A DNA stretch of 64,000 nt from Tubiluchus corallicola (Eukaryota > Animalia > Priapulida): assembly GCA_030141605.1 (NCBI GenBank), contig JAQGDQ010000018.1, positions 558,001-622,000 on the forward strand, written 5' to 3'. Shown one piece after another: positions 1 to 50,080 of this stretch. The first letter of the stretch is position 1. Each line of letters starts with the position of its first letter. The notes below the pieces were generated by a model, which was given only the letters and a program-made list of their open reading frames with translations, was not told where the DNA came from and made no database searches. The position numbers were made by a program, and so were the translations under genes.

Positions 1-434
1 ATTTACCACTTATTAAAATATTTTTATTTTTGCATGTCTGCAGTAAATATAGCTTATACGGCAAGTCAGTTTTAAACAAATGCCCTTTTTAGTTGATGCC
101 TTTTCGAAAGTCTGCACATATCATTGTAAATAGCCCAATAAGGAAAAAAGTGATCGCTGCAATCCCAACATATATAATCTAGCAGAACGGTGAAAAACCT
201 GTTCGTTTTGCCTAAAAGTTATGAAATTTTACACAATACTAGAACCCATCAAAGTGATTATTCTGGAGAGGAGGCCAATCGAAAATCACCAAATATGGCT
301 ACCATTTTCAAGATGGCCGAAGAGATGACTGTCTGTAGCTATAAAGGCCATATCATAAGCCATACGAAATTGTCCATAACAGCCCTGTCAGTATTTTACG
401 CCAATATTGGTTGCAACCAAATTTACAGAGACAT

Positions 435-835
435 GAAAAAATGGCTTGGAATACATTGCAAGTGATGTGTCAACACTGCTAGAGCTGAGCTGTCTGAGCA
501 ACTGACTGAACGTATGCCTGTGTTTTGATGTATGCCTATATGACAAAGCTAGTATACTGATGTCAGTTGACAAAGCACCCAAAGACTTGTTCACAAGAAA
601 GAGAAGGTCAATTGGAGCACATCTGACATGTAATATATCAGACAGGATAATTGGTAATTTTGTGATTTTAATGTATTTGTTAGAACAGGACTGCCTCAAC
701 CTTACCATCACCATTTGACTGGGGATGGAAAAAGTCCACTAGTAACACATGGGAGCCAGGGCAGATGTAAATCCGAGCAAGTCCTGATTGTACAACTGTT
801 CGAGCAAATGTGGTGGTGAATGTGGCAAAATTAAT
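435..835 (+). mobile_element. Degenerate DNA-transposon ORF relic, Academ(X)-like C-terminal region
   Basis: Frameshifted translation gives KMAWNTLQ, LYDKAS..SVDKAPKDLFTRKRRSI, LPSPFDWGWKKS..TWEP and GRCK....CT....CGGEC. This is the motif order I recall for the XPG-adjacent and Cys-rich end of Academ-type proteins. Stops and frameshifts are present; element ends not defined. Confidence 0.55.
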
Positions 836-13054: not shown

Positions 13055-15427
13055 CTAGTTGAGACTGAATTCCGTGAACTGCATCATTACAACAACGTAC
13101 GTGAAGTAAAGACTAGCAATCTGAAGCAAACACATAGTTTTGTATAAGAGTCTGTTATATGTATGTATCAAGGACGAGATCTATTAATTATAGCAAGAAT
13201 GTTAATTGATAATGAATAAGCCCTTATATATATATACACATATTAAAATTTAATTGGCAATAAATGTCTTTCAGAAGATCTCAACTTGGTGATAAGCAAA
13301 AAAGCATGCACTCAAACATTTGAATATTCCTACATAATTTTTTCAAAAAAAGTGTAAAATGCAACTTACCGTGAGAATTACATCCTTTGTTATGATAATT
13401 ATACCCCAGTAAGTGAAACCAATTTTGTCACTGCTAAGTTTTGACAAGAGTAAGTTTATCTGCAAAACATTTATTCATAATTACGTATTGTCATTATTGT
13501 AATCCATAAAATTAAAAGCTGAATCTCAAACTTTGTTTATAAGCACAAAACTTTATAAGACTGATTAATGAACCATAAACGAAACTGATACCAATTCTTC
13601 ATGGGTATAGGCTTCTGGATTTTTGATAAAACGAAAATTATCACTAGGCTGTATGAGGTAGATGGAGCTAGTTGATTAGTAAATCCCAAAAGCGCTAAAA
13701 ATAAAACGGAAAACGATCATGCACTCACGCACGCACGCAGCACACGCACACATACACACACACACACACCGTTTTAATGTTAAATAGGCATTTGTTGATC
13801 TTATGACCTTTGGCCTATAAAACCAAAAGTCAATGGGTTTCCAGCTTTTGCCCTGGCCTTTTCCTTTGTCAGGTATATAGGCTTTATAATATATAGTGTT
13901 ATACTTGTAGGACGAATTCATTTACAGCATCCTTTGACTGAACCCGACTCATGGTTAATCTGGTTGCACTGTCGTCCTTGTACATTTCCAAGTCGTACAT
14001 CGACACTAGTGCTCCTTGTGCCTAAAAATAATGCGATAAATCTATGAACGATGCTAACTACATTAAGTATAATATTAACATATGTATTATGTTAATTATC
14101 ATAGGCATAAGTTTCACGTAACTAAACTCCTGCCGTACTAAACATGAAAACTGAAGATTAAGAAACAAACGTAAAAAGAAGTAGAGATCCAATAGAAAGT
14201 ACGTTCCTTTCAGGCGTATGTCAGAGATTCAATGATTTAGTTGCAATGTTGGCAGGACAACCACAACTTGTTTTACTTTTCGCTTATATTTCGCTTATTT
14301 TCTATACACTCTTATTTTAATTTTAATAGATCTGTGAAACATTTTATTGCTTATTTTAAAAGACAAATTAACAATTAGACATGATCATTAATTAAGTGAA
14401 AACATACCTCCTGGTACAGTGACGCAGCATACACAGAGATAAGAAATAATATGGATAATGTAACCGCCAACCAAAATCCGTTGATGATCATTATAATAAG
14501 ATTTGAATTAACATCACGAGACATTCTGATGAGGTCATAGGTATGCACTCCGGCATTAAGTATGGTCATAGTAAAATAGAAAAAAATTATTTTCTTAAAA
14601 TCTTCATCTGCTATTTTCACCATTTTTGTAACGCTTTGATGTCTGCGGCGCAATTTTTCCAACTGAACCGAGAGGTCGTTGACAGAAGTATCTCTGTTAC
14701 GGATTAAACTTGTTAATGATTCATTCAAATTTTCGTATTCCGTGCGAAAAATTTCACAAAGTCCACAAAAAAATGGTAACGGGAGTATCCATCCGAAGCA
14801 CACAATTGTTGTCAAAGACATGAAAATTATTTTCGTGTGGAACTTTGGCTCAAATGGTACAGCAAAAATTGTAAAAAGCTTGCGACTTTCTTCTATTGGC
14901 CCAAATGCATTAAATGATAACAAGCTTGAATTCAGGAATGAAACTACCCAACCTACGGTGACCAAAACACGAACATGACGTGTAATTCGGTTTGTAATGA
15001 CTTCACTGAAACAGACATCTTCATGAAAGTATCTGAAGATTACTTGAAAATGGCGTTTTTTTCTGAAAGCATTATGTATGACTGCAGTATTGCAAAACAC
15101 CATAAAATGCCAGCTGGCAACAACTGCAAACCATAGTGGGGAAAATAGTGTATTTTGTAAGATGAAAGTAAACAGATATCGAACAAGCTGAACAGCCAGA
15201 AATAATAAAATCACTGCAGAATAACTCAAACTTATCCATCTCAATAACGACTGATTTTCGTTGGGACTTTGCATTAGCGGACACAAACCAGTAACGTAAA
15301 GACTTCGAAGAGCTGGCTTCAGCAACTGATATAATTTGTTTTCACCATCGTCACTGACTGGTGCGAGTATCTGCTTCGTGTATATCGGATTGACTTTCCT
15401 GGATGATTTCAAGCTGAACTTATACAT
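13055..15427 (-). CDS. Gustatory receptor-like 7TM protein, GRL-A (~430 aa, 4 coding exons)
   Basis: Exons 15427-14408, 14021-13905 (AQGALVSMYDL..FVLQ), 13459-13370 (INLLLSKL..IGFTYWGIIIITKDVILT), 13120-13055 (IASLYFTYVVVMMQFTEFSLN*). All introns GT-AG, phase 0. Multiple hydrophobic helices and TYxxxxxQF motif. Start codon uncertain: the frame is open back to a possible acceptor AG at 15452-15453. Confidence 0.9.
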
Positions 15428-16547
15428 AGCTTCCTTCGTCTTTGATGGCAACTATAGTTATTACATAAACTTTCTATTTGGCCAAACAGCCTCTATTTAA
15501 CGAAGGCAATTTCGGTTAACTATTTGCAATGTACAAGTTATTGATCGGTGCATAATAGAAAACTGAAAATGTCTTTTTGCTTATTCGGTTTGTTTGAAAT
15601 AACAGAATAATATATCATAGTGACATCGTTGCGTGGGCACTCTTGCGTGAGCTAATATGTGTCTTGAATGTTGACCCAAAACAGGATAATGCAATGCAAG
15701 CGAGGTGCTTTCACAACTGTATCGTTATTATTACTAATTGACCTTAGGTACATATGCAGTTCAATAATTAATTATTGCTGCACTAACAACATGAAAACAG
15801 AATATAATAGGTAACTTATTTATAAATACGACTATTTTACCACTTATTTGTAAAAAAGGAACACAATAAATTACTGCTTCAACACATTTACAGTTATGCA
15901 TTTATTTGGCAAATCTCGTTCGAGATTGCAAAATAGGAGGTATGGTGTTGCAAATGGCGAAAAATATCTGTAAGTTTTATGAGGTAATTTCATCAGACGC
16001 TCGCCATGCTTATCTAGCAGCTCTGAATTCAATGGCTAAGTATTTAAAGTCATAACGACTCGCTGGTACTTCGTTTCAATTTGAAAAGAGTTACTCACAA
16101 AACTCTTCGACAAATAACATTTTGAGCCCAGCAGGCATTTATGGTGTTGCTAAACATGGATATAGTTATACTCAAGTCTTACAGCAAAAATGTGCATTAT
16201 TGAAGATTGCATGTGCACAGAGGCTGATATGAGTGGCTAAACTGTAGATTGCGTACTGTAGAGTAAATAGCAATTTCGTAAACAACAATATCTTTGACAT
16301 ACTGTAAGAACTGAAATACGTTATTAATACAACTAGACAAAATTTCAGATTTTTCTCTTTAAAACTATGAGAGGAGCAATATCAACACAAAATCAGCACA
16401 AACAACAACAGACGAAAAAGAAAAAATGCAAAAAATCGAATGAATTAAATTCTCACATGCTAAAGACGGGAAACTGCCCCTTAATAACTACGAAGTCTGT
16501 AGTCATGATTCCAACTTTGAATAGATAATTCACTTGCATGGGGTACA

Positions 16548-19500
16548 TTAAGCAAAGTTGAATTGCATCATGATGATAACGTACGTGAAATACACACTTG
16601 CCAACTGAAACAAAAAGAAAAGTGTTAAAACCTAATCAATTAAGGCTACTGCTTAGATTTTTTTATGCAAATGTGAAATAAGCCTTCAGAATGATGAAGA
16701 TAATGAGTGGGGGTGTTTTGCAAATTCTAATTTTTCTTTGCATTAATTTAGTTTTATTTGTGTTAACATTGCAATAACTGTAATAAGCGATTCACAGTTA
16801 TGTTAACGTATTTCTTACGAAGATCACTGCATTAAATGACATTAGTATACAAATGAGTATTACCGTGAGAATAACTTCTTTTGTGATTATAATGATTCCC
16901 CAGTAAGAAAATCCCACGCTGCTATTTGCAAGTTTCGACGTAAGCAAATTAACCTATAAAAGAAAGTTATCTGTGTACATAGTCCCATCAAAAACGAAGC
17001 TTTCTGACTACTTGTGCATAACTAGTTACACGAAATTAAGTGGGATCGATCAAATCCATACTGACTATAGCAAACAATAAATGCAAGCTTTACAGGCCAC
17101 TGTGTCGTCATGGTATGACACTCATTCATTCATTCCTTATCATTTATTTCGACATTCATTACAATACAATATCAATACATACACATTTAATATAATGTAT
17201 TTCATTATAAAAAACGTATTAATGTCAAAAAGACTAGTCGAGGAGAGATTACCTCTAAGGCATAAGCCGCTACCAAAAATGTTACCGATTAATGGCAACG
17301 AGTGCCACGCTGCTTTCACTGATTTACATGCAATGCAGCAAATTTTTGTGCCCTTCTGTACAAATTTTATTGCATGGAAAAACTGAAAACACACCATTCT
17401 TTGTTTTGTTGTCATCGTCGTCGTAGTCGTTGGTATTGTAATGATCATCATTTTCGTCGTTGTTGTCGTCATTGCTTTTGTTGTTAGTATTGTTGCTAGT
17501 CTTCCTGTAATTTCTCTTGACTGAATTAAGCATTATATTGTGAGTGGTATAATACAAACAACGTTATTACCGACCAAGTCTAAAGAAGAGAGTGGCTAAT
17601 AACGTAAAAAATTTTCTTACTTTCCAGCGTACTGACAGATGAATAACCTAGACAATGAAGAGTGACAACGCTCAAACTTTTCTAGTTTTTAAAGAGCCAT
17701 TCGGCGTGATAAGCATGGACATTATGATGTCGGTTCTTTACCTTTATGAAAGTATCAAAATAATCTTGCCCTGACAGTCATAGACCAGGTAATGCATTAT
17801 TCTACCCTTGCCAAGTCGAGAGGCATATGCTGTGACAAGTGCCTTGTGCCAATTTATATCTCGCCACAGTATTCCTAAAACAATCTTTGCAGAGAGATGA
17901 ACCAAATTCACTTCAGCTCTTATTTAAGATCTAGAACAACTTTTAGGAATACAAAGGCATGTTCAAATCCCATACAATACAAAATGTAACAGGTTATGTG
18001 AAAGAACGAACTCTTCCCTGAAACAGTGAATCAACAAACTGACTCAAACAAACAAATGTCTGAACTGGGATGAGGTGCTTTCCTTCATTCCTTTGCTTAC
18101 TGGGTAGAAACTACTAAAAAGGCGCGATTTGATCTGGTCTAAGGGTACGAAGTGAGCAGACCCACAGCAACACTTCGTCATACCGGAGGATGCAGTGAAT
18201 CTTGTTCAGTGTAATGTTGAATATGTTATTCAAGTATTGCATTACCTAAAATCTTACACCACAGAAGCCTAAGAAGTCTTTTTGACGACAAAATTGGTTG
18301 AGAAAGAGTGATATAACCAATATAGGTGAAGAAGGACCCCGAAGTTGTTCAAAAAGCTTTCCTGCCATTACCAATTAATCAGAGAAAACTGGAAACACTT
18401 CTTCGTGGTCTGTATGGGGTCAGTGAGAAAATCCCTGATGAATTTTACGGTATTAGTTGCATTCCTTTCCAGAGCGAGACGAATGGGATATTCTCCTTTC
18501 ACACAAGTGCGTTTAAGAAGCAGAGGTTGAGAGTGAGAATGTGCAACTTTTTTTCCGAAGATGAACAGTCGTCCGATTCTGATTCTCAACCAAAGTTAAG
18601 ACATTCTAGAAGTTTCAATACTATGTCGTTTCAGTAATGCTAGGATCGATGCTTCCCAACTAACACGGTTAATGCAAGTTATCTGAACACTTAACACCTT
18701 CACAACAATGTGAACTGAAACACGTCTTTGAGCACAAAGAGATTCTTTCCTAGTAAACCTGACATGACTCGTCTTATCAAGCATGACGAAAAGATCAGAA
18801 CTGATGAGCCAGACCAGACAAAATTTTATAACATTCAAAGCCCGTTATAGACTTCCCCAAGCCAGAAAAAACCGTGAGAGACGAAAAAAGGAATAAATGC
18901 TTTCCGGTAGAATGATAGCAGAAATAGACGACGTATTTCAAAGTCCAATAGCTTCTGCTCCTAAAGAAGGTGGAAGTATTCGTCTAGCATTGATTTTCGC
19001 AAAGTAAGCTGTCTCGCCAATTGTGACTTCTATTCAATTCCAAGAAGATCACATGCTCAACCAGCTCCACAGTGCCAAATCCCTCTCAAAGTTGATCATC
19101 ACAAAATACTATTGGCAAATTCCTCTTGATGAAAAATCTAAACCCATAACCACTTTTGTTGCAAAATTTGATAAATTTAGATTTAACGTAATGCCTCAGT
19201 GGCTCCAGCTCAATTCTTAGTAGACAAGATTCTTACACCAGCTTTGCACAACGCCTTTGGCTTTATTGGTGATACTCTTATCAAAAGCAGATCCTGGGAG
19301 GAATACTTGGAACATCTGTCAATAGTACTATTACCAATCAAAGAGGCTGGCTTGACAGTAAAGACTTCTAAATCCGAGTTTGCCCAATATCACTTTAAAG
19401 GCTTAGGTCACTTTGTTGGAGACAATGCTTTGTAGCCTCAAATTGAAACGAAACAACACTTTTGGTAAATTTTCGGCAACGAAGGCCTGCAACGAAGAAA

Positions 19501-22500: not shown

Positions 22501-24546
22501 ATACAAGTTGAAACATGTTCATAACTATTACCTGCAAAATAAATTTGCTCATGACATCACAATGCTGCTCATAACTTATTGTCGATTTGGTAGCAATGTT
22601 AACAGCATTTTCGCACATTTTCAGATCGTAGATCAAATCCAATCCAGCATGAGCCTGGTAAATATAAATCGTGGGTTGAATATTACTGTTTGACAAAAAC
22701 GTTTTGTCACAATCACAGCCCGTCTCATAAAATAGTACATACGTTAGACATTTACATATGAAGGAAATAGATACTCTCACGCACACATGCATCAGGAGGA
22801 ACGTATGACCTAATAGTTAATTAACTGAAGGAGAAGGTGTTGAAAAATTGTAGGCTAACCAACGCATAAACCCAGAGCCACACGCACACACGCTCGCGCA
22901 CACACACGCATGCACGCGCACACACACACACACGTAGCAATTGACGATGTCACCAGACCCGGATTATCCTATAGGCTGGAGCCTATGGACCCTCAAACTT
23001 AAAGAGAGGGGCTGATTTTGAATTGCTGAGTAATTCATTTAGCTTAAAATAAAGTTTCAACTTTAAAAGTGTCCCCTGTTAGTGGCCCCTCATTTGATAT
23101 AAAGGGCCTCTGTTTGAGACATTTATGTGAGACAAAAGGTCATTGTTTGAGGCCCTTCATTTGAGATAAGGGACCCCAATTTGAAGATCTTTATTTGAGA
23201 TAAGGGGTTCCCAGGTATTTTTAAATGTCGGGTGGCTCCGTCTGAGGGTTCCATAATTTCATCAGAGCAGGGGCCCAAAATGTCATAATCCGGCCCTTGT
23301 TACACCGTAAGTACAGTACAACAGATTCTCAAGAGAACATTCGTGCCGCTATTTCTTGGATAAACTTTGCCTGAACTTAGTTCACATGATTAATCGTCTC
23401 ATTTAACACGGAGGAACTATTCTTATTAGATTGATGCAGCAGACTATATTTATAACAATGCAAAGATATCACCGAGCCTACCTCTTCGTGCAAGGCTGCA
23501 GCACACATAGTAATGAGCAACATAAACACCAAAACACTCAGCAACCAAAAAGAGTAGATAATGATGTCACTAAGATGCTGATCTATGTTTTGTAGAGCCT
23601 TTATTAGGTGAAATGAAAGTAAGCATGATCCAATTATTTGTGTTGTTAAAAGAACAAAGATAATCTTTTTGAAATCTTGATCAGCCAATTTCACAAGTTT
23701 GGTTATTAGGTGATGGTCGCGACGTATCTTTTCCAAACGAGCACACAAATGATCTATTGGCACATCTGCATAGTCTTGCACAAAAGACGCAATATAACCA
23801 TTGATAGTTTTAAATTGCACATGAAAAATGAGGCAGAGTCCAGCAAAATACGGTACAGGTAACATGTATGCCATTGTCACGAATGTTGTCAGCGTAACAA
23901 AAATGACTTTGGCAAACATATTTGGTTCAAACGGCACAACGAAAACCAAGAAGACCTTTCTACTTTGTTCAAAAGGCCCAAATGCGTTAAAAATAATCAG
24001 TGCCGTATTAACGAAGCATGTAATCCAACCAGCCACAACCATGATGCGAATGGTGCGCGTGATTTTCTTTGTAGCGGAATTATGGATGGAAATAGTCTCC
24101 TGGAAGTATTTATATAGAACGTCACTGTGGCCTTGTTTTCTGAAGGCGATGTGAATAACTGTGGTGGTGCAAAAGACCATGAAGTGCCAATTAGTTATTA
24201 TTAGCAGCATCATGAGGTTTGCGTAATCAGGCTGCAGTACGATTCCTAGAAAATAGCGTGCCAGATGGATGCCCAACAAAGCTAACACTAATGTGGAATA
24301 GATCAAGCTGGCCAAATGCCATAAGGTGTACTTTCCATTTAAATTCGGCATCAATGGACATAGACCGGCGACATTGAGGCTGAGCAGAGCTGGCTTTAAT
24401 AATGCGTATAGTTTACTCTCATTGGGGTTGATTGCAGGTATTGTCTGCAGGTGCTCCTTGTGCATTTTTAAACCATACTCCAAAGTGTCAGCAGGCTGAT
24501 CACCACTTTCACGTTCAACGTGTACTTTTGCATTTAATCTAAACAT
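16548..24546 (-). CDS. Gustatory receptor-like 7TM protein, GRL-B (~444 aa, 4 coding exons)
   Basis: Exons 24546-23482, 22654-22532 (AHAGLDLIYDLK..FILQ), 16953-16864 (VNLLTSKL..VGFSYWGIIIITKEVILT), 16604-16548 (LASVYFTYVIIMMQFNFA*). GT-AG phase-0 introns; intron 2 (5.6 kb) holds two retroelements. Confidence 0.9.
17690..19670 (+). mobile_element. Degenerate Ty3/Gypsy LTR-retrotransposon pol, integrase upstream of RT (Gmr1-like)
   Basis: Integrase core at ~17690-18100 (EPFGVISMDI, LTVIDQ..HY, FISRHSIPKTI, LLGI..PYN..CNRLCERTNSSLK, WDEVL..FAY). RT at ~18835-19620 (SPYRLP, PKEGGSIRL, YWQIPLDEKSKPITTF, FRFNVMP, FIGDTLI..WEEYLEHL, GLGHFVG, AGYYQKFI, PLHELTKK). Many stops and frameshifts; LTRs not identified. 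Confidence 0.8.
20918..22035 (+). mobile_element. 5'-truncated RTE-clade LINE with uninterrupted 3' ORF, (GAC)n tail and 12-bp TSD
   Basis: ORF 20939-21979 has YADD, FGLTVNIGKT, FPYLGS, LLYGCETW, WAGHVARM, GKRPLGRPRRRYKD and a terminal CxxC..H...H finger. Tail gacgacgacgacg at 22023-22035; TSD ATAATACGAAAA at 20906-20917 and 22036-22047. Confidence 0.95.
22954..23299. mobile_element. MITE with CAG..CCGGATTAT terminal inverted repeats (hAT-like), in GRL-B intron 1
   Basis: cagacccggattat at 22954 versus ataatccggccct at 23285; internal tttgagata-type subrepeats. TSD not clear. Confidence 0.55.
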
Positions 24547-25046
24547 TTTTGGATCAAACACTACTAAACTTTGTTAATTTTATTTACAATAATTCTGGAT
24601 GCTAACTCTAAGTTTACTTGATTGGCGCGTCAAATATGCTGTGTTAGCTTACGTGGTCAAGTACGACACAAACGCTCATGCAGACAACGTGTTTTCAATA
24701 AATACTAATGGTACTATATGAATTGCCCTAATCATAATGCCAGTTAATGTTTGTTATGTTAGTGTTTTCTATGCAGTCCAAATATTTACTTTTGACGAAA
24801 TGCTTGTTACTTCCAATGCTATTATCTTTTATATATGATTGCAAGTCGTGTTTAGTTTATTGACTAAACCTAACTCGAAATGCCTGGCCCTTAAACGCTG
24901 TTAGGTGCTCTCGTCGTATCCGCTGGCAAATTTGGTTATATCCATCTTTTTATTTGAAATTAGCAATACGCCTTAACTTTGGAGTTTTTAGACTCGCAAT
25001 AATTATTGTAATGTAAGGAGTTGCTAGTAAGGAGTTGGAGAAAGAG

Positions 25047-25125
25047 GGGGAGCTGAAAAATTGTTGACTAATCGGGTTTCGAACCCGAGACCTGGAATTA
25101 ATACTACCGTGGCCATCCGAACTAC
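25047..25125 (-). mobile_element. Possible tRNA-derived SINE head (pol III A/B boxes)
   Basis: Minus strand reads tagttcggatgg (A-box-like) ... gggttcgaaacc (B-box-like); no full cloverleaf. Confidence 0.3.
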
Positions 25126-25767
25126 ATGACAGAGCAGGCCTGAGATTTTCTGCTTATAGCACGTAATCCAAGGATGTGTGCTGCAAGAACGAAAACTGCT
25201 GTATAAAATAAGTCAAGGGCTCCTAAATTTACATTTTAATGAATTCTTTGGTTATACCCCCCCCCCCATACAAAGGGTCTGAGAATTCATAGTATTACAC
25301 AGTATAAAAAATTTTGTAGATTAAACTCATTCAAATATTCGTTTGCAAACTGTGTTGTAAATATTTTAATGCTACTAACCTTAGCCGTTTTACTTTGCTG
25401 CAAATCAATTTTAATTCGTTATTAAACTTAACTTTTTTATATTTTAATAGAAATTTTAATTAAGAATAGCTTCCCTGTGTAAGCGGCATGTACCTGGACG
25501 AGGTTACACAAAGCCGTCACTAAGTTAACGACGTCGTTAATATCTCTTTAGTGACGATTTTAGCGAGCTCGTTAGCGTTTGCTTTTCACGCGATTGACAT
25601 TAACATTGACGATTCACACTAACATGATTGTAATAATTGAAGCCGTATAAAATGCACTAGCGTAGTAGTGACCTGAACTTGAAGGTTTCTGCCCTATAAA
25701 TTTAATTCCCTTCACCTATTTGTCTCGAACATTATAGAACATTGTTTGTTATCGACTTTCAGTGCAC

Positions 25768-26281
25768 AGTAAAAATGGCACAAGTAAAAATGGCGCGGTA
25801 AAAATTGCGTAAGAAAAAATGGCACAGGAAAAATGGCATAAATGGGAAAATAGGAAAAACATGCACACTTGTAAAATACGAGTTTAGGATTAGGGTTTAC
25901 TGTGGGGGATAATTATTTTAGTTATTTATACCACTGTTAAGGATGTTGTGCTTCAACACTGTTTGTTTGTTTGGTTTGTTGGTTTTTGTCTGCTACATAA
26001 TAGCAAACTTATTATACAAAAATTACTTAACAGATTTCTAGCTCGAAGTTTTGCGAAAAAGGTGGCGGCAAAAAAGTGTATTTTGACGCAGACTCCTGGG
26101 CGGAGGAGGGGATGAAACTTCCAAAATGGATGGTTTTCGTTTGTTTTTTTCACAAAACTTGACCGAACATCACGTACAAAAAACATTCGTAAAGCGTCGT
26201 AAGGTCTCAGAGGGGGTGTTATAGCTCTTTGGAAAGCAGGCTTTAGAAGATAACTATGAGTTTGTTCCAGGTTCCACTTTC
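25768..26281 (+). mobile_element. Truncated second copy of the AAAAATGGCAC-array element
   Basis: Same subrepeat array, followed by sequence colinear with 11350-11720 (e.g. cacgtacaa.aaac.ttcgt.aagc; acta.gagtt.gtt.caggttcca). Right end missing. Confidence 0.75.
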
Positions 26282-27176
26282 CTAGAGGACGGAAGCAGGG
26301 TTGTCTTGGATATTCAATAACTATAATTTAAGAACAGCAAAGCCTAGGAAGACGAATAGTGGGTAGCCAGGATCGCGGACATTACTGATAGTGAATAAGA
26401 TGTTGTAATTCTGCATTGTTTGGCAACCGAGAAAGCATTTCTTTCTCTACCAAAACTTTCTGTCTTTTTCAACAAAGTCTCAAGCCACGCCGACCAAAAG
26501 GCGCCAAAGAAAACCTTAACATGACGTTTTTGGGCTCATAACTTAGGCGACTTGGCCTCTAATAATCGGACCATGGTTAGCCTCTCCCACTGTATATATT
26601 CAGTTTTGTATATTTTTTAAATTTGTTAAACATATAAATATGTAAATAATTATGTCTTTTTCTAGAATAAGTAATAAATAAATAAATTTGCGGAAGGCAT
26701 ACATTCACGACTGTCGTAGAATCAGTCTCACTTGTTAATAGTTGTAAAGTTTGTAAAGTATTATTAATTGCTAGTATATGTGGATGGAGAGAATAAAATA
26801 ATAAGTTGTTCCTGAGCCGTTTTTCAACTAACAGTTTGCAAACGATCTACAAAGTGCACAATTCAGTTGTTTGGTTCCTCTGGTGTAGTGCTGTGTTTAA
26901 ATCCATAGTCCCGATGCCAATATAGGTAACAAAATTACAAGCTTATTTATAAAATATTATAAGAGTAGCTGCAGCGTATATGCAAGCGTGAACAACAAAG
27001 ATGAGGAGTTTTGCAGCTACTACACAGCGCGCGCGCGTGTTTATGTGTGTGTGTTTGTGTGTGCGCGCGCGTGAGTGCGTGCGCGCGTGTGCGTGAGTGT
27101 GTGTGTCTGACTGACTTTCAAGTACTTGCGTGACGTCATACTTACGTCACATGTTTTGGACGGGGTTCTCACTACA

Positions 27177-27253
27177 CTAGTATTTCTAGTATTCCTCATT
27201 TTCTGGTAGATCATACAATATATTGGAGAAATGGGGAATACTAGAAATACTAG
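27177..27253. repeat. 25-bp inverted repeat (1 mismatch), probable mini-MITE
   Basis: ctagtatttctagtattcctcattt (27177-27201) versus aaatggggaatactagaaatactag (27229-27253). Confidence 0.75.
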
Positions 27254-27754
27254 AGGAACTAAACAAAAAAACAAACAACGATCTGAACTAATCAGTTAAC
27301 AAACTAACCGATTTCACGATTCGTGATGTTAAAAAAGTTCGCTATTGGCAGAAAGATTAAAAGCGCTACAAAAATTGTCTAACCGCATTGATGAGACATC
27401 ATATGAAGCATATGATATGCAAGGTTCCAGACATCATCTTCTTTGTAGGTAATTCCGATAGCACAAGTTTTATGCTTATATATTGTAAATAATTTACATA
27501 AAGAGATGTCAGCCGCGCAACAGAATAGACGTGATGGCCATTTTGAGTCTGAATGAACAGCAAATAGAAATTTCGTTTGTTTGCGCATCTCACCGCAATT
27601 ATTGTGGTGCGTGCTGCTATCTTTTCAGTTACGTGAAGAGTTTTATCGTCAACTAACTTATAAAATCTAACTTGTCGCATTAGGAAAGAGCAAACACAAA
27701 GGCATTTACACCGCATTTGTCGTGTGACGAAAGCACGTAAATGGGTGCACATGT

Positions 27755-29061
27755 ATGCGTGGAAACATAGTATCACATAATTCAAGAACAAGTTTCATCA
27801 AGGCAATGAAGACTGGTCGAAAAAACGTTATCGGACACATGCCCTCAACAGAGATGACCAGAGCTTCTAGACTATCACATTCTACAACAGGCATTCGGAT
27901 GTCTTTACCAGAGGTTAAATGTTCCAGTGATAACAGACTCTTTGAAGTCGTGAAGCCTGCTGTTGTGAGTTTATACATAGCTGGATTGTGCCCTATGGTA
28001 TCAAATTTTAAAGGACAACGCACCATGTTGCACAAGATCAGCTCTGTTTATGCGGCTATTCAGTTGATTTTATTTTTCTTTCAGTTCTTTCGTTGCATAC
28101 CAGCTTTTCTGATCAGTTCGCCATATTATAAAAGCTCAACTCTTTGGATGGTCACCTTCACAACGTGGTACCTTAACGTAGCGTGTATCACTTCCGTTTT
28201 AAACATTGCTTTCAGAAAACGAGATCATATGGAGCTATTTTTCAAATATTTGCAAGAAGATTTGTCTTTGCACAAGTTGACCAAATGGTCTAACAACAAG
28301 GAAGTAGCCACAGCAGCTCGTCATGTTCGTCTAATGGTTGGACTAGGCTGGGCCGCATGCTTCCTCAATAGCGCTATGAGTTTTTTCAATTCTTATGGTC
28401 CGTTCGAACAAGGCCGAGAAATTTTTCTCTTATTTTCCATACCGTTCAAGCCGACTATTCCCATTAGAATATTATTTTCAACATTGGGAACTTTTGCTGG
28501 ATTTGGCTGGGTAATGCCGTTACCGTTCTTTGCTTCTATTTGTATCGTTCTTCGCCTTCTGTACAAAAAAATCAACAATGCAATTGAGACTTTGATGCTG
28601 GATGAAGACATTGGAGTTCATGAACTTTCTGCTAGCTTAGAAAAATTGCGTCGCGAACATCAGCAGGTCACCAAATTAGTTGAAATTGCTGACCGAGACC
28701 TGAAAAAAATGATTTTTTTCTTTTACATTATACTCATTCCACTTTCTTGTTTTATTACATATAAAATGATGGACTTTTTCCAAGATTTTGAGGCAAATTT
28801 TCAAGTTATTTTGAATACCGCGTTCTGGGTGCTGTGCTCTATCATCATACTGATATTACTTTCTGTATCTGCTGCTGAACTAAACGCAACGGTAAGTAAA
28901 ATTAATTTGAGGGACTCTGGTCAAGTTAGTAGTAAGAATGTTGTTAATACGGTGTTGATCTACAAATAAGCACTGTGGGCATTTGTCCTAAGTCTCAACG
29001 TAGGTAGTCTATTGTACGAGTTACTGTTATTATTATTATTATTATTATTATTATCATCATC

Positions 29062-29138
<77 letters not shown>

Positions 29139-30824
29139 TATTATTATTATTATTATTATAAATCTACTTTATTCTCCGTTTCCAGATATGCATTCCAACA
29201 ATTTAGATACGATAGATACGATAGATCTAAATTGTGGTAATAAAATTGTCTATTAAATTCACTGCAAATCAGATGCAACCCAGGAATCGCATCCACTGAC
29301 GTATAATTTATTAATTAAAAATCCTCCAATGACATTTCTCTTGCGGCGGTTTTTCAGTAAATTCCTCAGTATGTTTCAACGCTCCAATATTTTTTTTCTA
29401 AATTTATTCACATAGATTTTGACACAAGCGCTTCGTTTTTCGTGGCGGACCAGGACCTTAATTTAATCCGCTCATTGTGTCTCACAATGTTCGTTCAATC
29501 TCGCCAACAAATGTCACCACGTATTTGCATAATGCTCATATTTAAATCCTCTTTTTTAACTTTTAGGCTACGGAAGGATTAAACGCTTTATTCGATTTGA
29601 AGATGTACAGAGACAATAACGAAGACAAACAAATTACTTCGCTGTCTTCAGATGTTGGTGATGTTGTTAATAAGCTTAACATGACACTACAGGTATCTCA
29701 TCTAAAAAGCTAAAACAATAAATAATATAGAAGAGTTTTGTTAATCAAAACTTTCTTTAAACAGCGTTTACTCTAAACGCCATATGAGGAGAGAATGGTT
29801 GGGATCGCTGTACCAAAACACTAATATTGCTACCTGCTCATTCACCGCACACTGGCGACTTACCAAATTTTGTAATAATTTAATTAGTGAAATTTTGCAT
29901 CTTTATATTTCTGCGATAAACAGTCAATAATTATAAATGAATTAATTGTAAGTACAAAAGAATTACCTGTAGATACTTTTCTCCACACAATAGAACCGTT
30001 TATATGTGTCATAACGTACTACCTTTATAGCAAAGTTGATAAACTAATTTCGTAAGAATCGTCGGAATCTGTTTATACGTACTGAATCGTTTTTTCATTT
30101 TTTTCAGATGACGATGTTTATGATTAAACTTGGCAATGGAAAAATTGGATTTTCTTTTTGGGGTATTTTCATCATCACTAAAGAAGTCATACTTACAGTG
30201 AGCATTACGCTTTTTTTCATAAATTGTACTTTGTAGGGAATGAGACATATCTACCATTTCAACTTTTAGCCATATTATCAGCAAGCCAGTCTGGTATAAC
30301 TCCGACGACCGGGGCATCGATGATATGATATAAATTAAACATAAAAATGTGCCGTGATTGTCAGCTATGTGCAAATACAATGTAATAAAGTGGGTTCTAA
30401 CGTTTCGTATACATAAAATAAATCATTATTTTACGATATAACAATATATGCGGTTACATATTTCCGGGAACATTGGTAAAACTACGTCAATTCAGATGGC
30501 CTTCTTATACAAGAAGAAGGCTGTACAGAAGGCGCTGTCTGTTAACTTTCTAATTTCCATTTCATAGCGTTTTTGGTATAATGAAAGGCACACTATTACA
30601 CGAAAGATTTAACAGGAACTATGAGGCGTTTGATTTTTATTCAGACTACTGGTGCCAAATGTTACCTATGTGTGAAAAATCGTTTCGTGACTGAAATCCG
30701 CATTTGCAGTATTTTTATTTTCCTAAAAAGACTTGCGAGTTTAATAACTTTCTGCATTTTTTTTCAGCTGGCCAGTCTTTACTTTACGTATCTGCTACTT
30801 ATATTGCAGTTTAATTTGGATTAG
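27755..30824 (+). CDS. Gustatory receptor-like 7TM protein, GRL-C (up to ~469 aa, 4 coding exons)
   Basis: Exons 27755-28891, 29567-29692 (ATEGLNALFDLK..MTLQ), 30108-30197 (MTMFMIKLGNGKIGFSFWGIFIITKEVILT), 30768-30824 (LASLYFTYLLLILQFNLD*). GT-AG phase-0 introns. Several alternative in-frame start Mets. Confidence 0.9.
29027..29160. repeat. (ATT)n(ATC)n(ATT)n compound microsatellite in GRL-C intron 1
   Basis: Direct reading of the sequence. Confidence 0.95.
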
Positions 30825-31811
30825 AACGAAGAGCCCAGGAGAAGAAACTTAGACGTTATTCTAGTCATTACCGTTTTATCGTTAATTAGTTATGGTGTAA
30901 TTATATTGATTGTGCTTGTACCCCCTGCGCCGGCATTGGCCCGAACAGACACAGACTTTTCGGACGGTTTATATCATTGCGGTTTGCACTGTATCCACTG
31001 TCACAGGAAGCCACGGAACCACAGAGACGCATATAATCCGCCGTGAATATTTTTCTGGACAAAAACTCTCAGATTCGTGACCGAGATTGCGCAATGCGAA
31101 GATAAACAATGAGTCTTAGTTCTATTTAATTCAGAACAGCACTCACAACAGATTTTCAGACATTGATTTTTGATGAACTCAGATTATGATAAATTTTGTG
31201 TAATAATGATTCTTCTTTGTTAACTATGCAGTAGCTCCACCGACATGGAGAGGCTGCATTAAAATTATATAAATAACAAACATTAATGAGTAATGTTGAT
31301 GTTTACCTTAAATTAGTCCATTAGGGGAAAACAAAGAATCAGATTGCCAAGTTTTCAACAAAAATGGGTAATTTGCACTTGTGGTTACGTCTAACACCAC
31401 TTACGTAACCCTTCTGCGTAAAATTAATATCTGAACTTGTTCACTGTTAAGCATTTAAAGTAACTTTTACCGTACGGTACGGTCCGTATGCTGTTCAAAT
31501 CATTTTCCTTGCGCAACTTATGTGAAAAATAAGGCGAAATTAAAATTCTAACAACTAATACATTTGTTTTTATTCTGTAAAGATCGTGGAAATAAAGTAT
31601 ACTACTAAAAATATCTTTTATTTTGTATTCCTTTTAAGAAACTACCGCAAGTTTTGTAGGTTAAGAAATGCAAGCCATTTCTACAACTGCGGTAACATAT
31701 CGCAGATTGCATATGTGTATGATGGATGCAGTTTTTCCAACTGATAATTTCAACAGAAAAAGTTTTCTGTTTCTGCACGTGTCTGTGCTGACTTAGTGGA
31801 TACGTAGCCTA

Positions 31812-32011
31812 AAGTGGCATTTACCAGACATCCGGAATGCGTTTGCGTTACGTGGATGCGGAATAGATAACATCGGTTTATAATTTTCAATGCACCCGTT
31901 TATCAGACCAGCGTTATGCGTTATTTTTTCTGCAGCTATTTCCTACTGATTTTTATACGCAGCTATTCCGCAGGTGGACAACGCATAAATCATGGCTGGC
32001 AAACGTCGCTT
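31812..32011. mobile_element. Possible PIF/Harbinger-like MITE
   Basis: Imperfect TIRs aagtggcatttaccagac / ggctggcaaacgtcgctt, T/A-rich flanks, interior rich in tgcg/cgca units. Confidence 0.35.
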
Positions 32012-34593: not shown

Positions 34594-37500
34594 ATGCAAT
34601 ATGCAAGAGAACGAGAAAGGTCGGGAAGCACTCAGAATGACAACAACTCCAAGCCTGAAAAGAAGACATGTATGAAGCGACTGGACGATTGCAGGCTCTA
34701 TGTATTACTGAAACCAACTATCGTCAGCCTTAACATAGCTGGTATATGTCCGCTTATACGAACACCAACTGAACGGCAGTCGCGCATCCACATAGCTTCT
34801 TCTGTGTACTCGATATTCATCTTGATCCTCATGATATTCCTCTTGCTTCGCATCATCGTGTCAATGATCTTGCGCGCAGGAACTGATGCTTATGACGAAA
34901 ACATGGATTCACCTGTCTGGAACACAATTTTCATCACTTGGCACCTCATGGTAACATGCAGCACAATTGTACTGCAAATAGGGTTCAGAAAAACTAAGCA
35001 CATTCATCAACTCTTCAAATATTTTCACGAAAATTGTTCTTCAATATGTATTACAGAAGATAAAATATTTACTAAAACAAGAAATCACGTCCGTGTCCTA
35101 GTCGGTATTGGATGGGGAGCATGCATCTTCAATATATCCATGTTGTTCTTTAATGCTTGTGGACCTATCGAAGAGAGTCGGAAGATTTTTTCTATGTTTA
35201 CAGTCCCGTTTCCAGATACATTACCAATTCGCATTATTTTCCAGGTCCTGTCCATATCAGTGACTCTCGGCTGGTTTTTACCTATACCGTTCTTTGCAGC
35301 AATTTGCTTGATATTCAGAATGGAATACAAGAAAATAAATGAAGCTATTGCTGTACTTATGGCAAACAAGGCTATTACAGTGAAGAGTCTAGCCAACCAG
35401 CTAGAAGCACTCCGTCAGAAACACCAAACAGTCACTAAGTTGGTGAAAATAGCTGACCTGGACTTGAAGAAAATTATATTTTTGTGCTACTCGTTTAATA
35501 TTCCATTAATCTGTTTCATAACCTACCAGCAGATGAAGCTATGGCAACAATCCACTTTACTTGTCTACGCAATGATCAACGGCATGTTTTGGATAATGGC
35601 GGATGTCATCATGTTGTTGATCATTTCGATATTTGCTGCAGAAGTCAATCAAGAGGTAAGCATTGACAAATAATTGTGTCGTCATCAATGTCAGCGTCAA
35701 CGTCAAAAAGGATTAAAATTATCAATGTCAGCGTCAACGTCGTTAAATTATTAAAATACCTGATAGATAGCAGAAACAAAGTAATAATACAAGTACTCAA
35801 GGCATTTTGCGATATCCGTAATGCATACTATTTGACAAAACTGACAAATCTCTGTCAGGCTACTGATTTTATTATTAGTTACCAAGAAGCGATGTAAGTC
35901 ACTTGGGCAAGCGTCTACTTCATAATAATATTATATATATATATATATATACTACATAACATCCTAAATCCTAAAATAATCACACGCTTTTAAGGTCAGT
36001 GATAAAAACTTTGTCAGACAGGAACTTTTTGCTCATCGTCCACTAATTTAGACTGAAAAGAGTAAGGCCCTACTTGTTTGTAAACTACATTTTCTACATA
36101 ACTGTTGATTTAAGAAGACAAGACGGTCTCATCAAATTAACTATGGCAGTTAGATTAAGAATTATTGACACCCAACTAATTCATTTAAAGAATATAAAAT
36201 ATTACGTTTGCTGAACAGATTCATAAATTTTTATCTTCTCTTTTTCTCTCTACAATTTAAAAAATTATCTGCCTGTCTCGCTTTCTCTTTTTGGGCATCA
36301 TGCAGAGCCAAATGATTAGGAGAGTGTTGCAGATGAAACACCTGGAACAGTTTTCTCAAGTGTATGCAAGCTCTTTACTGGCCAATCCTGCCGCTGTTTG
36401 ACTTGTACCCAGTTGCACGCTGTGACAGCCAAGTTATTCTCATGAAAGCTAAAGTGCATTAATTCATGCTATAAGCCAAATCACCATAAGAAGATAATGC
36501 AGTAGAGAATTCAGAACATGATACAGAAAAGTATCTAAAATAAGTAAAAGCAAGCGATAAAAAGTGAAAGATATGGTGACTAGGTCAAATTGTAATAGTG
36601 AGTCAGCAGGCTTTTTGTCTGTTAGGTTTGATCTGTTAATATTCAAATATGTAAAGTTAAGTGACAAAAAAGTAACCGGTACAATGATTACAGCCAACAC
36701 AGTGCAGTTGTGAGCCAGTAAATTTTTGACTATTAACTGGTGAGAGCAGAAAGATATGCTGACAGAAAAACAAAAATGTGGTAAAATGTTACAGGTCATT
36801 TCTTTTTCTTATGTTTCATCTTAAGTGATGTAACACGTGTTGCAATAAATCCTCTACAGGTCGCTTAAGCGTCGTTCCGCTTCAAATCACCCAATATTCT
36901 TCCTGAAAAACACCCTTATGTCGCAGATTTTAATGCAATTTGGTGTGTTGGTTTAGCTTAAGGAGAAATGCAAAAGTCCAAATTTTTAACGAAATTGGGC
37001 CAGCGGTTCAAAAGTTACGGCTCTTTGAAAATGGCCGAAAGGGCCAAAAAATCGCCTAAATCGGCATGACCTGCAATTTTTAAACGTTCATAACTCAAAA
37101 AGTTTAAATCCAATTTCGATGGGAATGGTGCCATTTTAAAGGGAATTCAATAAGCTTTCAGAATCTGCAACAAAACTTCAGATAGGTGGCGTCTGAATTT
37201 ACAAGAACTTTTGACCTTTACTTTGACCTTGAAAATGACCTTGTGGGACAGAATTTTTTGGACCGAGTCTGGCGTTCTTGAATTCCTCGGTATCTGGATC
37301 ATGTACTCTGTAAAAAGCTAAGCTAATGTTAATTTTTATGGGCATTTGAATTTACCATACAAGCCTAATTCGTGGTGACATGTATATATCATAAGGTGTG
37401 TATGAGTACCACATATTTCATATGCATCCATTAAATATTTGGTGGTTAGGAGTGAGTCATCTTTAAATTTTACAAGCTTAGGGTGCATTTTATGTAATGT

Positions 37501-38864
37501 GTGAATTTATTTTAGTGAAATGTGGATAAGTGCAGTTTTTATTAGAAAGAAAGTTAGAAATTACAAATCTACCAAAATCTGTTGTAATTGGGAAAAAAGT
37601 GTGTCCAAGTTGTTGCATGAAACTCAAACAAAAGGTTGATCATGAATAAGACAGTAATATTGAGGAAAATACAGAAGTTTCCTTATCAGAAGCTGACAGA
37701 GATGTATCTTTGACGAATGCTAATGCTGTGTTGTTGACTCTGGATAAAACACCTGCAAACACAGGTTAGTTATTTTTGTTCTATGAAGATACGGTGGTTT
37801 TCCCAAATAATAAACTTCATCGTGCACACTCATACAAACAATTTTGAAAGTAGAAAAGACAGGGGCATCGCTAGACATGGTTGACAGATTCTGAAAGCTT
37901 GTTGAATTCCCTTTAAAATAATACCACTCCCATCAAAATTGGATTTAAAAAATATAAACACAAAACTTGGGCACAGGGATAGGTATGGGCAAGACCAACA
38001 GCCCAGCTTTTGGGTTCAAAAAGTCAAAGGCTAAGGTCACTCAAAATAATTTTTTGTCTATAGTACCTCACGTCACGGCATGAGTCTGACCCTCTAGTTG
38101 GTGCTCTCATTCTAGTTACAACAGACTACAACATAGTAATTGCACAGAAAAATACAGAACAAAAACTGTTTTCTGTATAGGCACATGGAGGATTCAGTGC
38201 ATTATTTGATTTGAAGACCTGTCATCATAACGAATATTGCTCTACCATCAGCAAACAAGAAGACATGGACGTTCTTACCAACGTCAACTTTGCATTACAA
38301 GTAAGTGTACCATATGTCCTCCGGATTTATAAAAGTCAAATTGCGTGCATCAGCATTCTTGAACATTTTTATAGCCAACTATAAAAAAGTATCGGAGCAT
38401 GCTACCAGTATAATACCTTTCCTATGCGACTAATACTAATAGCTGTGCATTTTTCAGATGAATATGCTAATGATCAAGCTTGGAATAGACAAAATTGGCT
38501 TCTCATTTTGGGGCATGTTTGTAATAACCAAAGAAGTGATTCTCACTGTAAGTAGAGTTATGTAATCATTGAAAAACTTTTTTCACTAATTATCACTATT
38601 CTAATCATTAAGAATTAAATTTCCGTTATAGTTATAAGTACTAAAGAGATGCTTTTCCAGTTTTTTTGAAAACAGGGTTGCAGAGATTTAGCAACAAATT
38701 ACAGGTGAAAGCTACAATACTGTTGTTGTAATAAAAACAATACAACGATGTGCATTTTTTGCTCAGCTTTTTCCCGCCAGAGCAATTTGCATAATGATTT
38801 TTCCTTTTAGTTGGCCAGCCTCTATGTCACCTATCTCTTGCTTATGATACAATTCAACGTATGA
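34594..38864 (+). CDS. Gustatory receptor-like 7TM protein, GRL-D (~441 aa, 4 coding exons)
   Basis: Exons 34594-35655, 38181-38300 (AHGGFSALFDLK..FALQ), 38458-38547 (MNMLMIKLGIDKIGFSFWGMFVITKEVILT), 38811-38864 (LASLYVTYLLLMIQFNV*). GT-AG phase-0 introns. Confidence 0.92.
36858..37950. mobile_element. Internally deleted DNA transposon in GRL-D intron 1
   Basis: A ~70-bp imperfect inverted repeat (37103-37171 versus 37880-37950) encloses a degenerate plus-strand peptide GKKVCPSCC...SLTNANAVLLTLDKTP, reminiscent of transposase N-termini (possibly Sola-like; inference). Confidence 0.5.
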
Positions 38865-40676: not shown

Positions 40677-40816
40677 TTAGCCTTCGTATTCCCACACTGA
40701 AGCAGCTCCCATTCCAGTTCCAATACACATTGATATCACACCATATGATCTGTAATTAAATCCAACAAATAGTAATAGTAATAATAATAATAATAATAAT
40801 AGTAATAGTAATAATA

Positions 40817-40851
<35 letters not shown>

Positions 40852-49800: not shown

Positions 49801-50040
49801 ACTATTTTTGCTACAGAAAAGACAAAAAGAGTTACGTCAACTAAGGAGCACATAGAAAGAAAGAAAGGCAGTTCTCGCAGGATGAGAAAGCAAAAAAAAT
49901 AATAAATTTTTATCTAACTTACTTTTTAATAAAATAAAATTTAAAAAAATGTGAGAAAAAAGAAACAATTTAATCAATTGATCTAGAGAGAGGAAGAGAA
50001 AGAGAGAAATAAAGAGAGAGAGAGAGAGGAGAGGGGAGAG

Positions 50041-50080
<40 letters not shown>

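What the first reader, a model, noticed from the sequence alone, without database searches (positions are those of the whole stretch)
13055..38864. Cluster of four intact, divergent gustatory-receptor-like (7TM ion channel) genes: a candidate lineage-specific chemosensory receptor family
Seen: four ~430-470 aa multi-TM paralogues share private motifs (L...KP...SL...G.CP, FN..GP.E..R..F, P.P.F, LE..R..H...TK.V..AD.D.KK.IF) and end in GF..WG...ITK.VILT|.AS.Y.TYxxxxxQF. The ORF track shows only exon 1; the diagnostic motif appears only after splicing three short exons. Established: TYhhhhhQF in TM7 is the signature of the insect Gr/Or and GRL superfamily of tetrameric ligand-gated channels; non-arthropod GRLs are mostly uncharacterised and were reported absent from chordates. 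Inference: this is a local expansion with diverged exon-1 (ligand-binding) and conserved pore/anchor regions, as expected of a chemoreceptor repertoire.
Basis: partly seen in the sequence, partly recalled or inferred. Interest (0 to 1): 0.8.

Follow-up and report, generated by a model that had tools for sequence, protein, structure and literature searches.

The report
Four taste-receptor-like ion channel genes
Four intact neighbouring genes of an invertebrate, likely a priapulid worm, encode proteins predicted to fold like insect taste and smell receptor channels and likely act as chemical sensors; relatives are already known from molluscs, annelids and starfish, so these are new members of a known family.

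Summary
Confirmed. Four intact four-exon genes (430, 444, 452, 441 aa; 37-47% identical) lie at the stated coordinates. All 12 introns are GT-AG and phase 0, and TYhhhhhQF occurs only in the four last exons. Exon 1 of gene D folds like Orco/Or/Gr channels (Z 25.6; first unrelated hit 8.0). Named homologues are GRLs of molluscs, an annelid, hemichordates, echinoderms, a rotifer and Trichoplax; most homologues share the first intron site. The four form one clade (100/99) with saturated synonymous sites: an old local expansion. Pocket-side helices diverge (0.31) while anchor and pore are kept (0.53, 0.65). Best reading: ligand-gated tetrameric cation channels with different ligand pockets, likely chemosensory; ligand, expression and splicing are untested. 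The chordate hook is unlikely: ACAA1 falls outside vertebrates but does not fix the phylum, and unchecked notes of this scan call the genome probably priapulid. The scan has noted GRL loci before, in octopus, Owenia and elsewhere in this genome. New members of a known kind; interest 0.3.

The parts
14408..15427 (-). Gene A exon 1 (340 aa; N-terminus, S0, S1-S6)
   Evidence: ORF with ATG and GT donor; Pfam 7tm_6 27.5 bits, cut-off 25.8
13905..14021 (-). Gene A exon 2 (39 aa; S6-S7a linker)
   Evidence: AG/GT, phase 0; covered by a contig piece of divergent run X5
13370..13459 (-). Gene A exon 3 (30 aa; S7a)
   Evidence: AG/GT, phase 0; profile match E 8e-15 (profile includes window genes)
13055..13120 (-). 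Gene A exon 4 (21 aa + stop; pore helix S7b, TYVVVMMQF)
23482..24546 (-). Gene B exon 1 (355 aa)
   Evidence: 41% identical to A exon 1 by tblastn; no Pfam match alone
22532..22654 (-). Gene B exon 2 (41 aa)
   Evidence: AG/GT, phase 0
16864..16953 (-). Gene B exon 3 (30 aa), behind a 5,578-base intron with retroelement remains
   Evidence: AG/GT, phase 0; covered by an X5 piece
16548..16604 (-). Gene B exon 4 (18 aa + stop; TYVIIMMQF)
   Evidence: covered by an X5 piece
24547..27805 (.). 3,259 bases between the start codons of the divergent genes B and C; candidate shared regulatory region (inferred)
   Evidence: coordinates; X5 pieces align within 300 bases upstream of both start codons
27806..28891 (+). 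Gene C exon 1 (362 aa; alternative upstream ATG at 27755)
   Evidence: Pfam 7tm_6 16.5 bits, below cut-off
29567..29692 (+). Gene C exon 2 (42 aa)
   Evidence: AG/GT, phase 0
30108..30197 (+). Gene C exon 3 (30 aa; S7a)
   Evidence: 17 of 30 identical, no gaps, to residues 346-375 of Patella GRL P0248
30768..30824 (+). Gene C exon 4 (18 aa + stop; TYLLLILQF)
34594..35655 (+). Gene D exon 1 (354 aa)
   Evidence: Pfam Trehalose_recp 23.3 bits, cut-off 21; model pLDDT 90.7; Z 25.6 to Orco
38181..38300 (+). Gene D exon 2 (40 aa)
   Evidence: AG/GT, phase 0
38458..38547 (+). Gene D exon 3 (30 aa; S7a)
   Evidence: AG/GT, phase 0; 75% DNA identity to C exon 3
38811..38864 (+). Gene D exon 4 (17 aa + stop; TYLLLMIQF)

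Best explanation
These are four intact genes of the animal gustatory-receptor-like (GRL, Class-A 7TMIC) family that arose by old local duplications, and each is predicted to make a subunit of a four-part cation channel that likely opens when a small molecule binds and likely serves chemical sensing. Shown: gene structure, family, fold of S0-S6, one clade of four. Inferred by analogy with BmGr9, Orco and MhOr5: exon 1 builds the ligand pocket from the outer halves of S1-S6; the inner ends of S4-S6 with exon 3 (S7a) form the anchor that joins four subunits; exon 4 (S7b) lines the pore, where the Phe of QF plugs it and the Gln turns in on opening. The pocket-side helices differ most between the paralogues, so the four likely prefer different ligands while sharing one gate. 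A conserved 20-residue S3-S4 loop with a short helix is predicted and may cap the pocket, as in MhOr5 and unlike the open sugar pocket of BmGr9. The tree ((A,B),(C,D)) fits one inverted duplication followed by a tandem duplication on each side.
For: Fold: D exon-1 model pLDDT 90.7, pTM 0.88. VIA Z 25.6 (rmsd 2.9, 304 aligned) to ApisOrco 8z9a_A; the 8 rows above Z 17 are all Or/Orco/Gr and the next is Z 8.0. All 8 Foldseek hits with E<=0.001 are Or/Orco. Sequence: family profile hits 11 PDB sequences, all Gr/Or/Orco, best Gr64a E 2e-13; ESM Atlas top clusters are Gr/7tm_7 at 0.95. C-terminus: the full-length Patella homologue folds with split S7a/S7b and aligns 17..390 onto BmGr9 16..444, so its motif Phe ends on the gate residue F444; C exon 3 is 57% identical to it. 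All four keep T, Y, Q and F, whose roles in BmGr9 are given in PMC11100771 (passages). Selection: pS 0.74-0.84 (saturated) against dN 0.43-0.56 with no stops. Mean pair identity 0.31 in outer pocket halves, 0.53 anchor, 0.65 pore; 0 of 20,000 permutations reach the difference (sites treated as independent). Clade of four 100/99, A+B 98/92.
Against: No transcript, expression site, ligand or current was seen. Non-insect GRLs with any functional data are often not chemosensory: LITE-1/GUR-3 act in light detection, and sea anemone and sea urchin GRLs are expressed early in development (PMC7746228, passages). [quoted passage not shown] Outer helix halves are more variable than anchors in the homologues too (0.20 vs 0.26), so the pattern is partly generic to the fold. 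C+D support is weak (90/67; 0.45). The spliced proteins themselves were not folded or scanned against Pfam; S7 rests on sequence and on a homologue's model. Tetramer formation was not tested.
Confidence: 0.7

Rival explanations
1. Same family and channel fold, but a non-chemosensory job: light, reactive-oxygen, temperature or internal-state sensing, or developmental signalling, as for nematode LITE-1/GUR-3, fly Gr28b isoforms and Nematostella Grl1.
For: These roles are reported for the few non-insect members studied (PMC7746228, passages). Four genes is a small cluster. The S3-S4 loop and S0 are strongly conserved among the four (0.57, 0.59).
Against: Four old paralogues kept intact, with divergence concentrated on pocket-side helices, fits ligand diversification. 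No named orthologue is shared across phyla, unlike a conserved developmental gene.
Confidence: 0.2
2. The paralogues work only as heteromers, for example an A/B-type with a C/D-type subunit co-expressed from the divergent B-C region, rather than as four separate homotetramers.
For: Head-to-head layout with 3,259 bases between start codons; anchor and S7a highly conserved among the four (0.53-0.64); heteromers are the rule for insect Ors (PMC11100771, passage).
Against: All four keep the full TYhhhhhQF motif as in homotetrameric BmGr9; the paper notes the motif is less conserved in heteromer-forming Ors. No paralogue has a short branch as a conserved co-receptor would (0.48-0.55). No 8-mer is shared by all four upstream regions.
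Confidence: 0.15
3. One or more gene models are wrong, or the genes are silent relics.
For: No RNA evidence for any junction. Gene B has a 5.6-kb second intron with retroelement remains. Start codons are not fixed.
Against: 12 of 12 junctions are canonical and phase 0; no stops despite saturated synonymous sites. The first intron site is shared with homologues. 5 of the 8 listed pieces of a roughly 10%-divergent run fall on coding exons (list truncated).
Confidence: 0.05

Closest known systems
Animal GRLs of molluscs, annelids, hemichordates and echinoderms (e.g. Patella XP_050407229.1, Haliotis XP_067682466.1, Sinanodonta KAL3867161.1, Ptychodera XP_070577621.1, Acanthaster XP_022090696.1, Owenia CAH1786854.1)
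   Same: One long first exon for S0-S6 ending at the same site; near-identical S7a/S7b signature; shared residues P41, G50, Y72, W116, P205, R274, H277, D288, W333 (gene D numbering); same fold.
   Different: Only 15-25% identical over exon 1. The four form their own clade with one unnamed Logan protein, P0121. Exon 2 is 39-42 aa against 23-24 aa for the same linker in 14 of 14 full-length homologues measured. Private motifs.
Insect gustatory receptors (DmGr64a 8jme, DmGr43a 8jm9, BmGr9 8vc1; Pfam 7tm_7 and Trehalose_recp)
   Same: [quoted passage not shown]
   Different: 10-12% identity in the structural alignments; predicted S3-S4 loop of 20 residues against 1 in BmGr9; ligands unknown.
Insect odorant receptors and Orco (ApisOrco 8z9a, AaegOR10 8v02, AgamOR28 8v3d, MhOr5 7lic)
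   Same: Best structural scores (Z 24.5-25.6; Foldseek ranks 1-8); long S3-S4 loop (28 residues in MhOr5); A exon 1 passes 7tm_6 narrowly.
   Different: Ors are an insect-derived branch; the window proteins keep the full Gr-type motif; the sequence profile ranks Gr64a first. The Z gap to Gr64a is under 2 and disappears for the Patella model (33.9 vs 33.2).
GrlHz and PHTF (the 7TMIC lineages known from chordates; PMC9998090, passages)
   Same: Same superfamily fold as reported.
   Different: No WD40 domain or long IL1 here; none of the 20 named homologues is a chordate, GrlHz or PHTF record. Not compared by sequence directly.

Membership tests
Animal GRL / Class-A 7TMIC | 7TMIC helical fold (S0, S1-S6 with long S4-S6 anchor) | tested here: met
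   D exon-1 model, Z 25.6, rmsd 2.9, 304 aligned to Orco; first unrelated Z 8.0. One of four genes folded.
Animal GRL / Class-A 7TMIC | TM7 motif TYhhhhhQF | tested here: met
   4 of 4 last exons; 4 of 3,422 six-frame segments.
Animal GRL / Class-A 7TMIC | Split S7a/S7b at the C-terminus | tested here: inconclusive
   Shown on the Patella homologue P0248 (helices 340-354 and 370-392) and by sequence match; the window's own spliced proteins were not folded.
Animal GRL / Class-A 7TMIC | [quoted passage not shown] | tested here: met
   Three phase-0 GT-AG introns in all four genes. Intron 1 site: 108 of 113 short-tailed homologues begin with Val (the GT donor) at that column. Three database models end or diverge at the intron 3 site. 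Positions were not aligned to Drosophila gene structures.
Animal GRL / Class-A 7TMIC | Match to Pfam 7tm_7 or sister models | tested here: inconclusive
   Exon 1 alone: no 7tm_7; 7tm_6 above cut-off for A, Trehalose_recp above cut-off for D, below cut-off for C, none for B. 13 of 18 homologues pass 7tm_7. Spliced proteins not scanned.
Animal GRL / Class-A 7TMIC | Intracellular N-terminus | not testable with these tools
   Inferred from the structural match only.
Animal GRL / Class-A 7TMIC | Tetrameric ligand-gated cation channel activity | not testable with these tools
   Needs electrophysiology; no complex prediction was run.
Insect odorant receptor (Or/Orco) | Nested in the insect Or clade | tested here: inconclusive
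   No insect sequence among 20 named homologues and none in the trees; the window proteins group with spiralian and ambulacrarian GRLs by profile score. No tree with Ors was built.
Chordate GRL | Host is a chordate | tested here: inconclusive
   ACAA1 lies outside the vertebrate clade (100/99) but unresolved, with no tunicate or lancelet reference. Mosaic CpG pattern. Unchecked scan notes point to a priapulid.
G protein-coupled receptor | GPCR seven-helix bundle | tested here: not met
   GPCR rows score Z 5.0-6.5 with rmsd 4.4-6.8 over 136-155 residues, against Z 17.7-25.6 for 7TMICs.

The most novel reading that the evidence does not exclude
The host is a tunicate or lancelet, so these would be the first canonical Gr-type GRL genes (TM7 motif plus the ancestral 3' introns) in Chordata, overturning the reported loss of the family at the base of chordates. 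My own tests exclude a vertebrate but not an invertebrate chordate; unchecked notes on other pieces of this genome (priapulid affinities, an IR25a gene) argue strongly against it. A milder and far likelier reading (about 0.65, interest about 0.4): a priapulid keeps the mollusc/acorn-worm type of GRL with its ancestral exon layout and a predicted lid over the pocket, a useful ecdysozoan outgroup for how arthropod Grs and Ors arose.
Probability: 0.03. Interest if true: 0.75.

Novelty: new member of a known kind. Interest (0 to 1): 0.3.

Why it matters
No ligand-gated current for a GRL outside arthropods and nematodes appeared in the papers I read, and these four intact, divergent paralogues are ready-made candidates for deorphanisation. 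If the host is a priapulid, they add an early-branching ecdysozoan to the family's range; my searches listed no paper on priapulid gustatory-type receptors, though Robertson 2015 and Saina 2015 were not readable. They do not open a new kind of system: hundreds of similar unannotated GRLs sit in public mollusc, annelid and ambulacrarian data (367 hits).

Tried and rejected
Word-index search with D exon 1: 0 of 2,427 candidates scored; the profile search then found 367, so the blank reflected low sensitivity. Pfam scan of single short exons (9 of the 12 were given): no chemoreceptor match, too short. Metagenome scan with the exon-1 alignment: 596 pattern matches, none confirmed. No whole genome is held, so the genome-wide GRL count is unknown. 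RNA: no RNA holder listed; run X6 (RNA is a guess) laid 7 pieces on 12900-32000, all in repeats and none on a GRL exon. This is no evidence on expression; gene D and a positive-control gene were not covered. Species from ACAA1: two exon searches gave scattered best hits (molluscs, vertebrates, oomycetes) and the tree left it unresolved, with an annelid and an amphipod also misplaced. Alternative-first-exon design (several exon 1s on one pore module): rejected for this window, since each exon 1 has its own exons 2-4 and no orphan exon appeared. Shared upstream motif: no 8-mer common to all four 500-base regions. Rfam: no match in the window. Earlier findings by sequence: none. Saina 2015 and Robertson 2003 are not held. 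Search for a Panarthropoda chemosensory survey listed nothing. No complex prediction was sent, because the tetramer interface lies across exons.
Full report
Observation. The four genes are there as described. From the sequence I built four-exon models and checked them by script: A, minus strand, 15427-13055, 430 aa; B, minus, 24546-16548, 444 aa; C, plus, 27806-30824, 452 aa (469 from an upstream ATG); D, plus, 34594-38864, 441 aa. None has an internal stop. All 12 introns are GT-AG and phase 0, 157 to 5,578 bases long. A and B are in tandem, B and C are head to head, C and D are in tandem. Pairwise identity is 37-47%. The motif TY+5 hydrophobic+QF occurs in 4 of 3,422 six-frame segments, each in a predicted last exon. 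tblastn and a family profile found no fifth gene and no orphan exon in the window.

Are the short exons real? A profile of the four exon-1 proteins found 367 representatives at E<=0.001, of which 150 were listed. Since exons 2-4 were not in that query, the C-termini of the hits are an independent test. A profile from the 15 of 157 sequences that end in a TY..Q-like motif (one of them, P0238, a chance pick) matches the exon 2-4 part of all four genes at E 8e-22 to 5e-18, mostly through exons 3-4. Of 146 homologues aligned, 8 have a gap at the end of exon 1; 113 have a short tail, and 108 of those begin it with Val, the read-through of a phase-0 GT donor at the same site; 25 continue, 19 of them with Ala as all four exon 2s do. 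Exon 2 is the least supported by homology: it is 39-42 aa against 23-24 aa in 14 of 14 full-length homologues measured. In run X5, about 10% divergent and under the same species label, 5 of the 8 listed pieces overlap coding exons of A and B (including A exon 2), 2 lie within 300 bases upstream of the B and C start codons and 1 is a repeat; the list is truncated, so this is only suggestive. No transcript was seen.

Family. Exon 1 alone passes Pfam 7tm_6 for A (27.5 bits, cut-off 25.8) and Trehalose_recp for D (23.3, cut-off 21), scores below cut-off for C and gives nothing for B; none hits 7tm_7. Of 18 homologues scanned, 13 pass 7tm_7. The family profile matches 11 PDB sequences, all Gr, Or or Orco, best DmGr64a at E 2e-13. 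ESM Atlas features point to gustatory receptor clusters at 0.95. The AlphaFold model of D exon 1 (pLDDT 90.7, pTM 0.88) aligns to ApisOrco at Z 25.6, rmsd 2.9 over 304 residues; eight Or/Orco/Gr chains score 17.7-25.6 and the next row 8.0. Foldseek agrees. For the C-terminus I folded a full-length Patella homologue as a proxy: it has split S7a/S7b helices and aligns to BmGr9 through residue 444, the gate Phe. C exon 3 is 17 of 30 identical to it without gaps. The spliced window proteins were neither folded nor scanned against Pfam, which leaves their own S7 structure and 7tm_7 score open.

Relatives and history. I looked up 30 of the 150 listed hits; 20 carry an organism name: 10 molluscs, 4 hemichordates, 2 echinoderms, 2 from the annelid Owenia, 1 rotifer and 1 Trichoplax; no chordate, arthropod or priapulid. 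Identity to D exon 1 is 15-25%. In a 43-row IQ-TREE tree the four form a clade (100/99), A+B is supported (98/92), C+D weakly (90/67), and the sister is one unnamed Logan protein, P0121 (100/99); deeper branches are mostly open. A 146-row FastTree (8 hits dropped for short matches) gave the same clade. Synonymous sites are saturated (pS 0.74-0.84) while dN is 0.43-0.56. So the duplications are old, local and under purifying selection, and no named one-to-one orthologue exists among the hits I could name.

How it likely works. By analogy with BmGr9 (PMC11100771, passages), S7b lines a central pore of four subunits, the TY pair shapes the ion path, QF gates it, the inner parts of S4-S6 and S7a form the anchor, and S1-S6 form the pocket. 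All four genes keep T, Y, Q and F. With segments taken from the model, mean pairwise identity is 0.31 in the outer halves of S1-S6, 0.53 in the anchor and 0.65 in S7b (0 of 20,000 permutations, sites treated as independent). The same direction holds weakly among homologues (0.20, 0.26, 0.27), so part of the pattern is generic. One feature stands out: the S3-S4 loop is 20 residues with a confident helix (193-203) and is conserved among the four (0.57). BmGr9 has 1 residue there and an open pocket; MhOr5 has 28 that close it. A capped pocket for small, perhaps hydrophobic, ligands is a guess from this, not a result. I put 0.7 on chemosensory ligand-gated channels and 0.2 on another sensory or developmental role, because the few non-insect members studied act in light detection, egg laying or early development (PMC7746228, passages).

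Host. The window is an intron-rich animal sequence of about 35% GC. CpG observed/expected is 0.58-1.34 in the 30 one-kb bins from 6,001 to 36,000 and 0.22-0.76 in the other 34, the mosaic pattern of invertebrate gene-body methylation (recalled). ACAA1 is fast-evolving: two exon searches gave no close named relative. In a 41-row tree it lies outside the vertebrate clade (100/99) and outside the vertebrate+mollusc+echinoderm+brachiopod group (96/99), but unresolved; no tunicate, lancelet or priapulid was in the set and two protostome rows were misplaced too. Earlier notes of this scan on the same genome, which I could not check, mention a priapulid in 15 of 33 cases, report an IR25a gene and another GRL locus. 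IRs are described as probably a protostome synapomorphy (PMC11682238, passage). I therefore put a chordate host at about 0.03.

What is known. GRLs are reported across Protostomia including annelids, nematodes and molluscs, in echinoderms and hemichordates, cnidarians and placozoans, but not chordates; the TM7 motif and 3' introns characterise them (PMC7746228, passages; PMC5850775, passages and section 7; PMC11526382, passages). Only the GrlHz and PHTF lineages reach chordates (PMC9998090, passages; bioRxiv 10.1101/2023.08.30.555482, passages). Searches pairing priapulid, Priapulus or scalidophora with gustatory terms listed 4, 5 and 1 papers, none on this topic by title or abstract start. 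The one supplement of PMC5850775 held has no priapulid term. In PMC9998090, 12 of 53 supplement files were searched and hold one Priapulus PHTF and one uncharacterised Priapulus protein; the unsearched files, and Robertson 2015 and Saina 2015 (known to me only through citing passages), may bear on whether priapulid GRLs are on record.

Verdict. It works like an insect Gr/Or channel by every structural test run, and meets the GRL criteria that could be tested. It is not a new kind of system, and the chordate reading that would make it surprising is very unlikely. Interest 0.3.

Noticed in passing
window 52300-57927, minus strand: A single 1,876-codon open frame with about 12 Ank_2 stretches whose last 500 residues resemble Fem-1 proteins by ESM features (0.97): a very long, intron-free ankyrin-Fem-1-like gene.
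   Followed up: partly
window 40677-50300, minus strand: Ten-exon peroxisomal thiolase ACAA1, fast-evolving (best 60% identity among 223 fetched thiolases), with a PTS2-like N-terminal motif (recalled consensus). The stretch between exons 6 and 7 seems shorter than in relatives and may hide a small exon.
   Followed up: partly
window 6001-36000: CpG observed/expected near 0.9 over the GRL cluster against about 0.45 over ACAA1, the ankyrin gene and bases 1-6000. The boundary falls inside intron 1 of gene D, whose 3' exons lie in the depleted zone next to the ACAA1 3' end.
   Followed up: partly
window 20900-21976, plus strand: 5'-truncated LINE (reverse transcriptase and C2H2 finger, weak Pfam matches), antisense inside intron 2 of gene B, with summed contig depth about 60 times the flanks in run X1. 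Decayed retroelement-like sequence follows at about 17500-19900, where run X3 has almost no cover (possible insertion polymorphism; X3 is patchy).
   Followed up: partly
window 6669-9226, minus strand: Endonuclease and reverse-transcriptase-like frames of a second non-LTR element, broken into several frames.
   Followed up: no
window 11240-12230 and 25764-25990: Two or three copies of a non-autonomous element with short tandem AAAATGGCAC-type subrepeats, very high depth in the DNA runs; one lies between the divergent genes B and C.
   Followed up: no
window 37103-37949: 65-base inverted repeats, 91% complementary, 717 bases apart in intron 1 of gene D: likely a MITE.
   Followed up: no
exon 2 of all four genes (e.g. 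window 29567-29692): The intracellular S6-S7a linker is 15-19 residues longer than in 14 of 14 full-length homologues: a clade-specific insertion next to the anchor, of unknown effect.
   Followed up: partly
P0121 (unnamed Logan protein, 412 aa): Closest relative of the clade (E 3e-47; 100/99); an exon-1-type product from an unnamed organism.
   Followed up: partly
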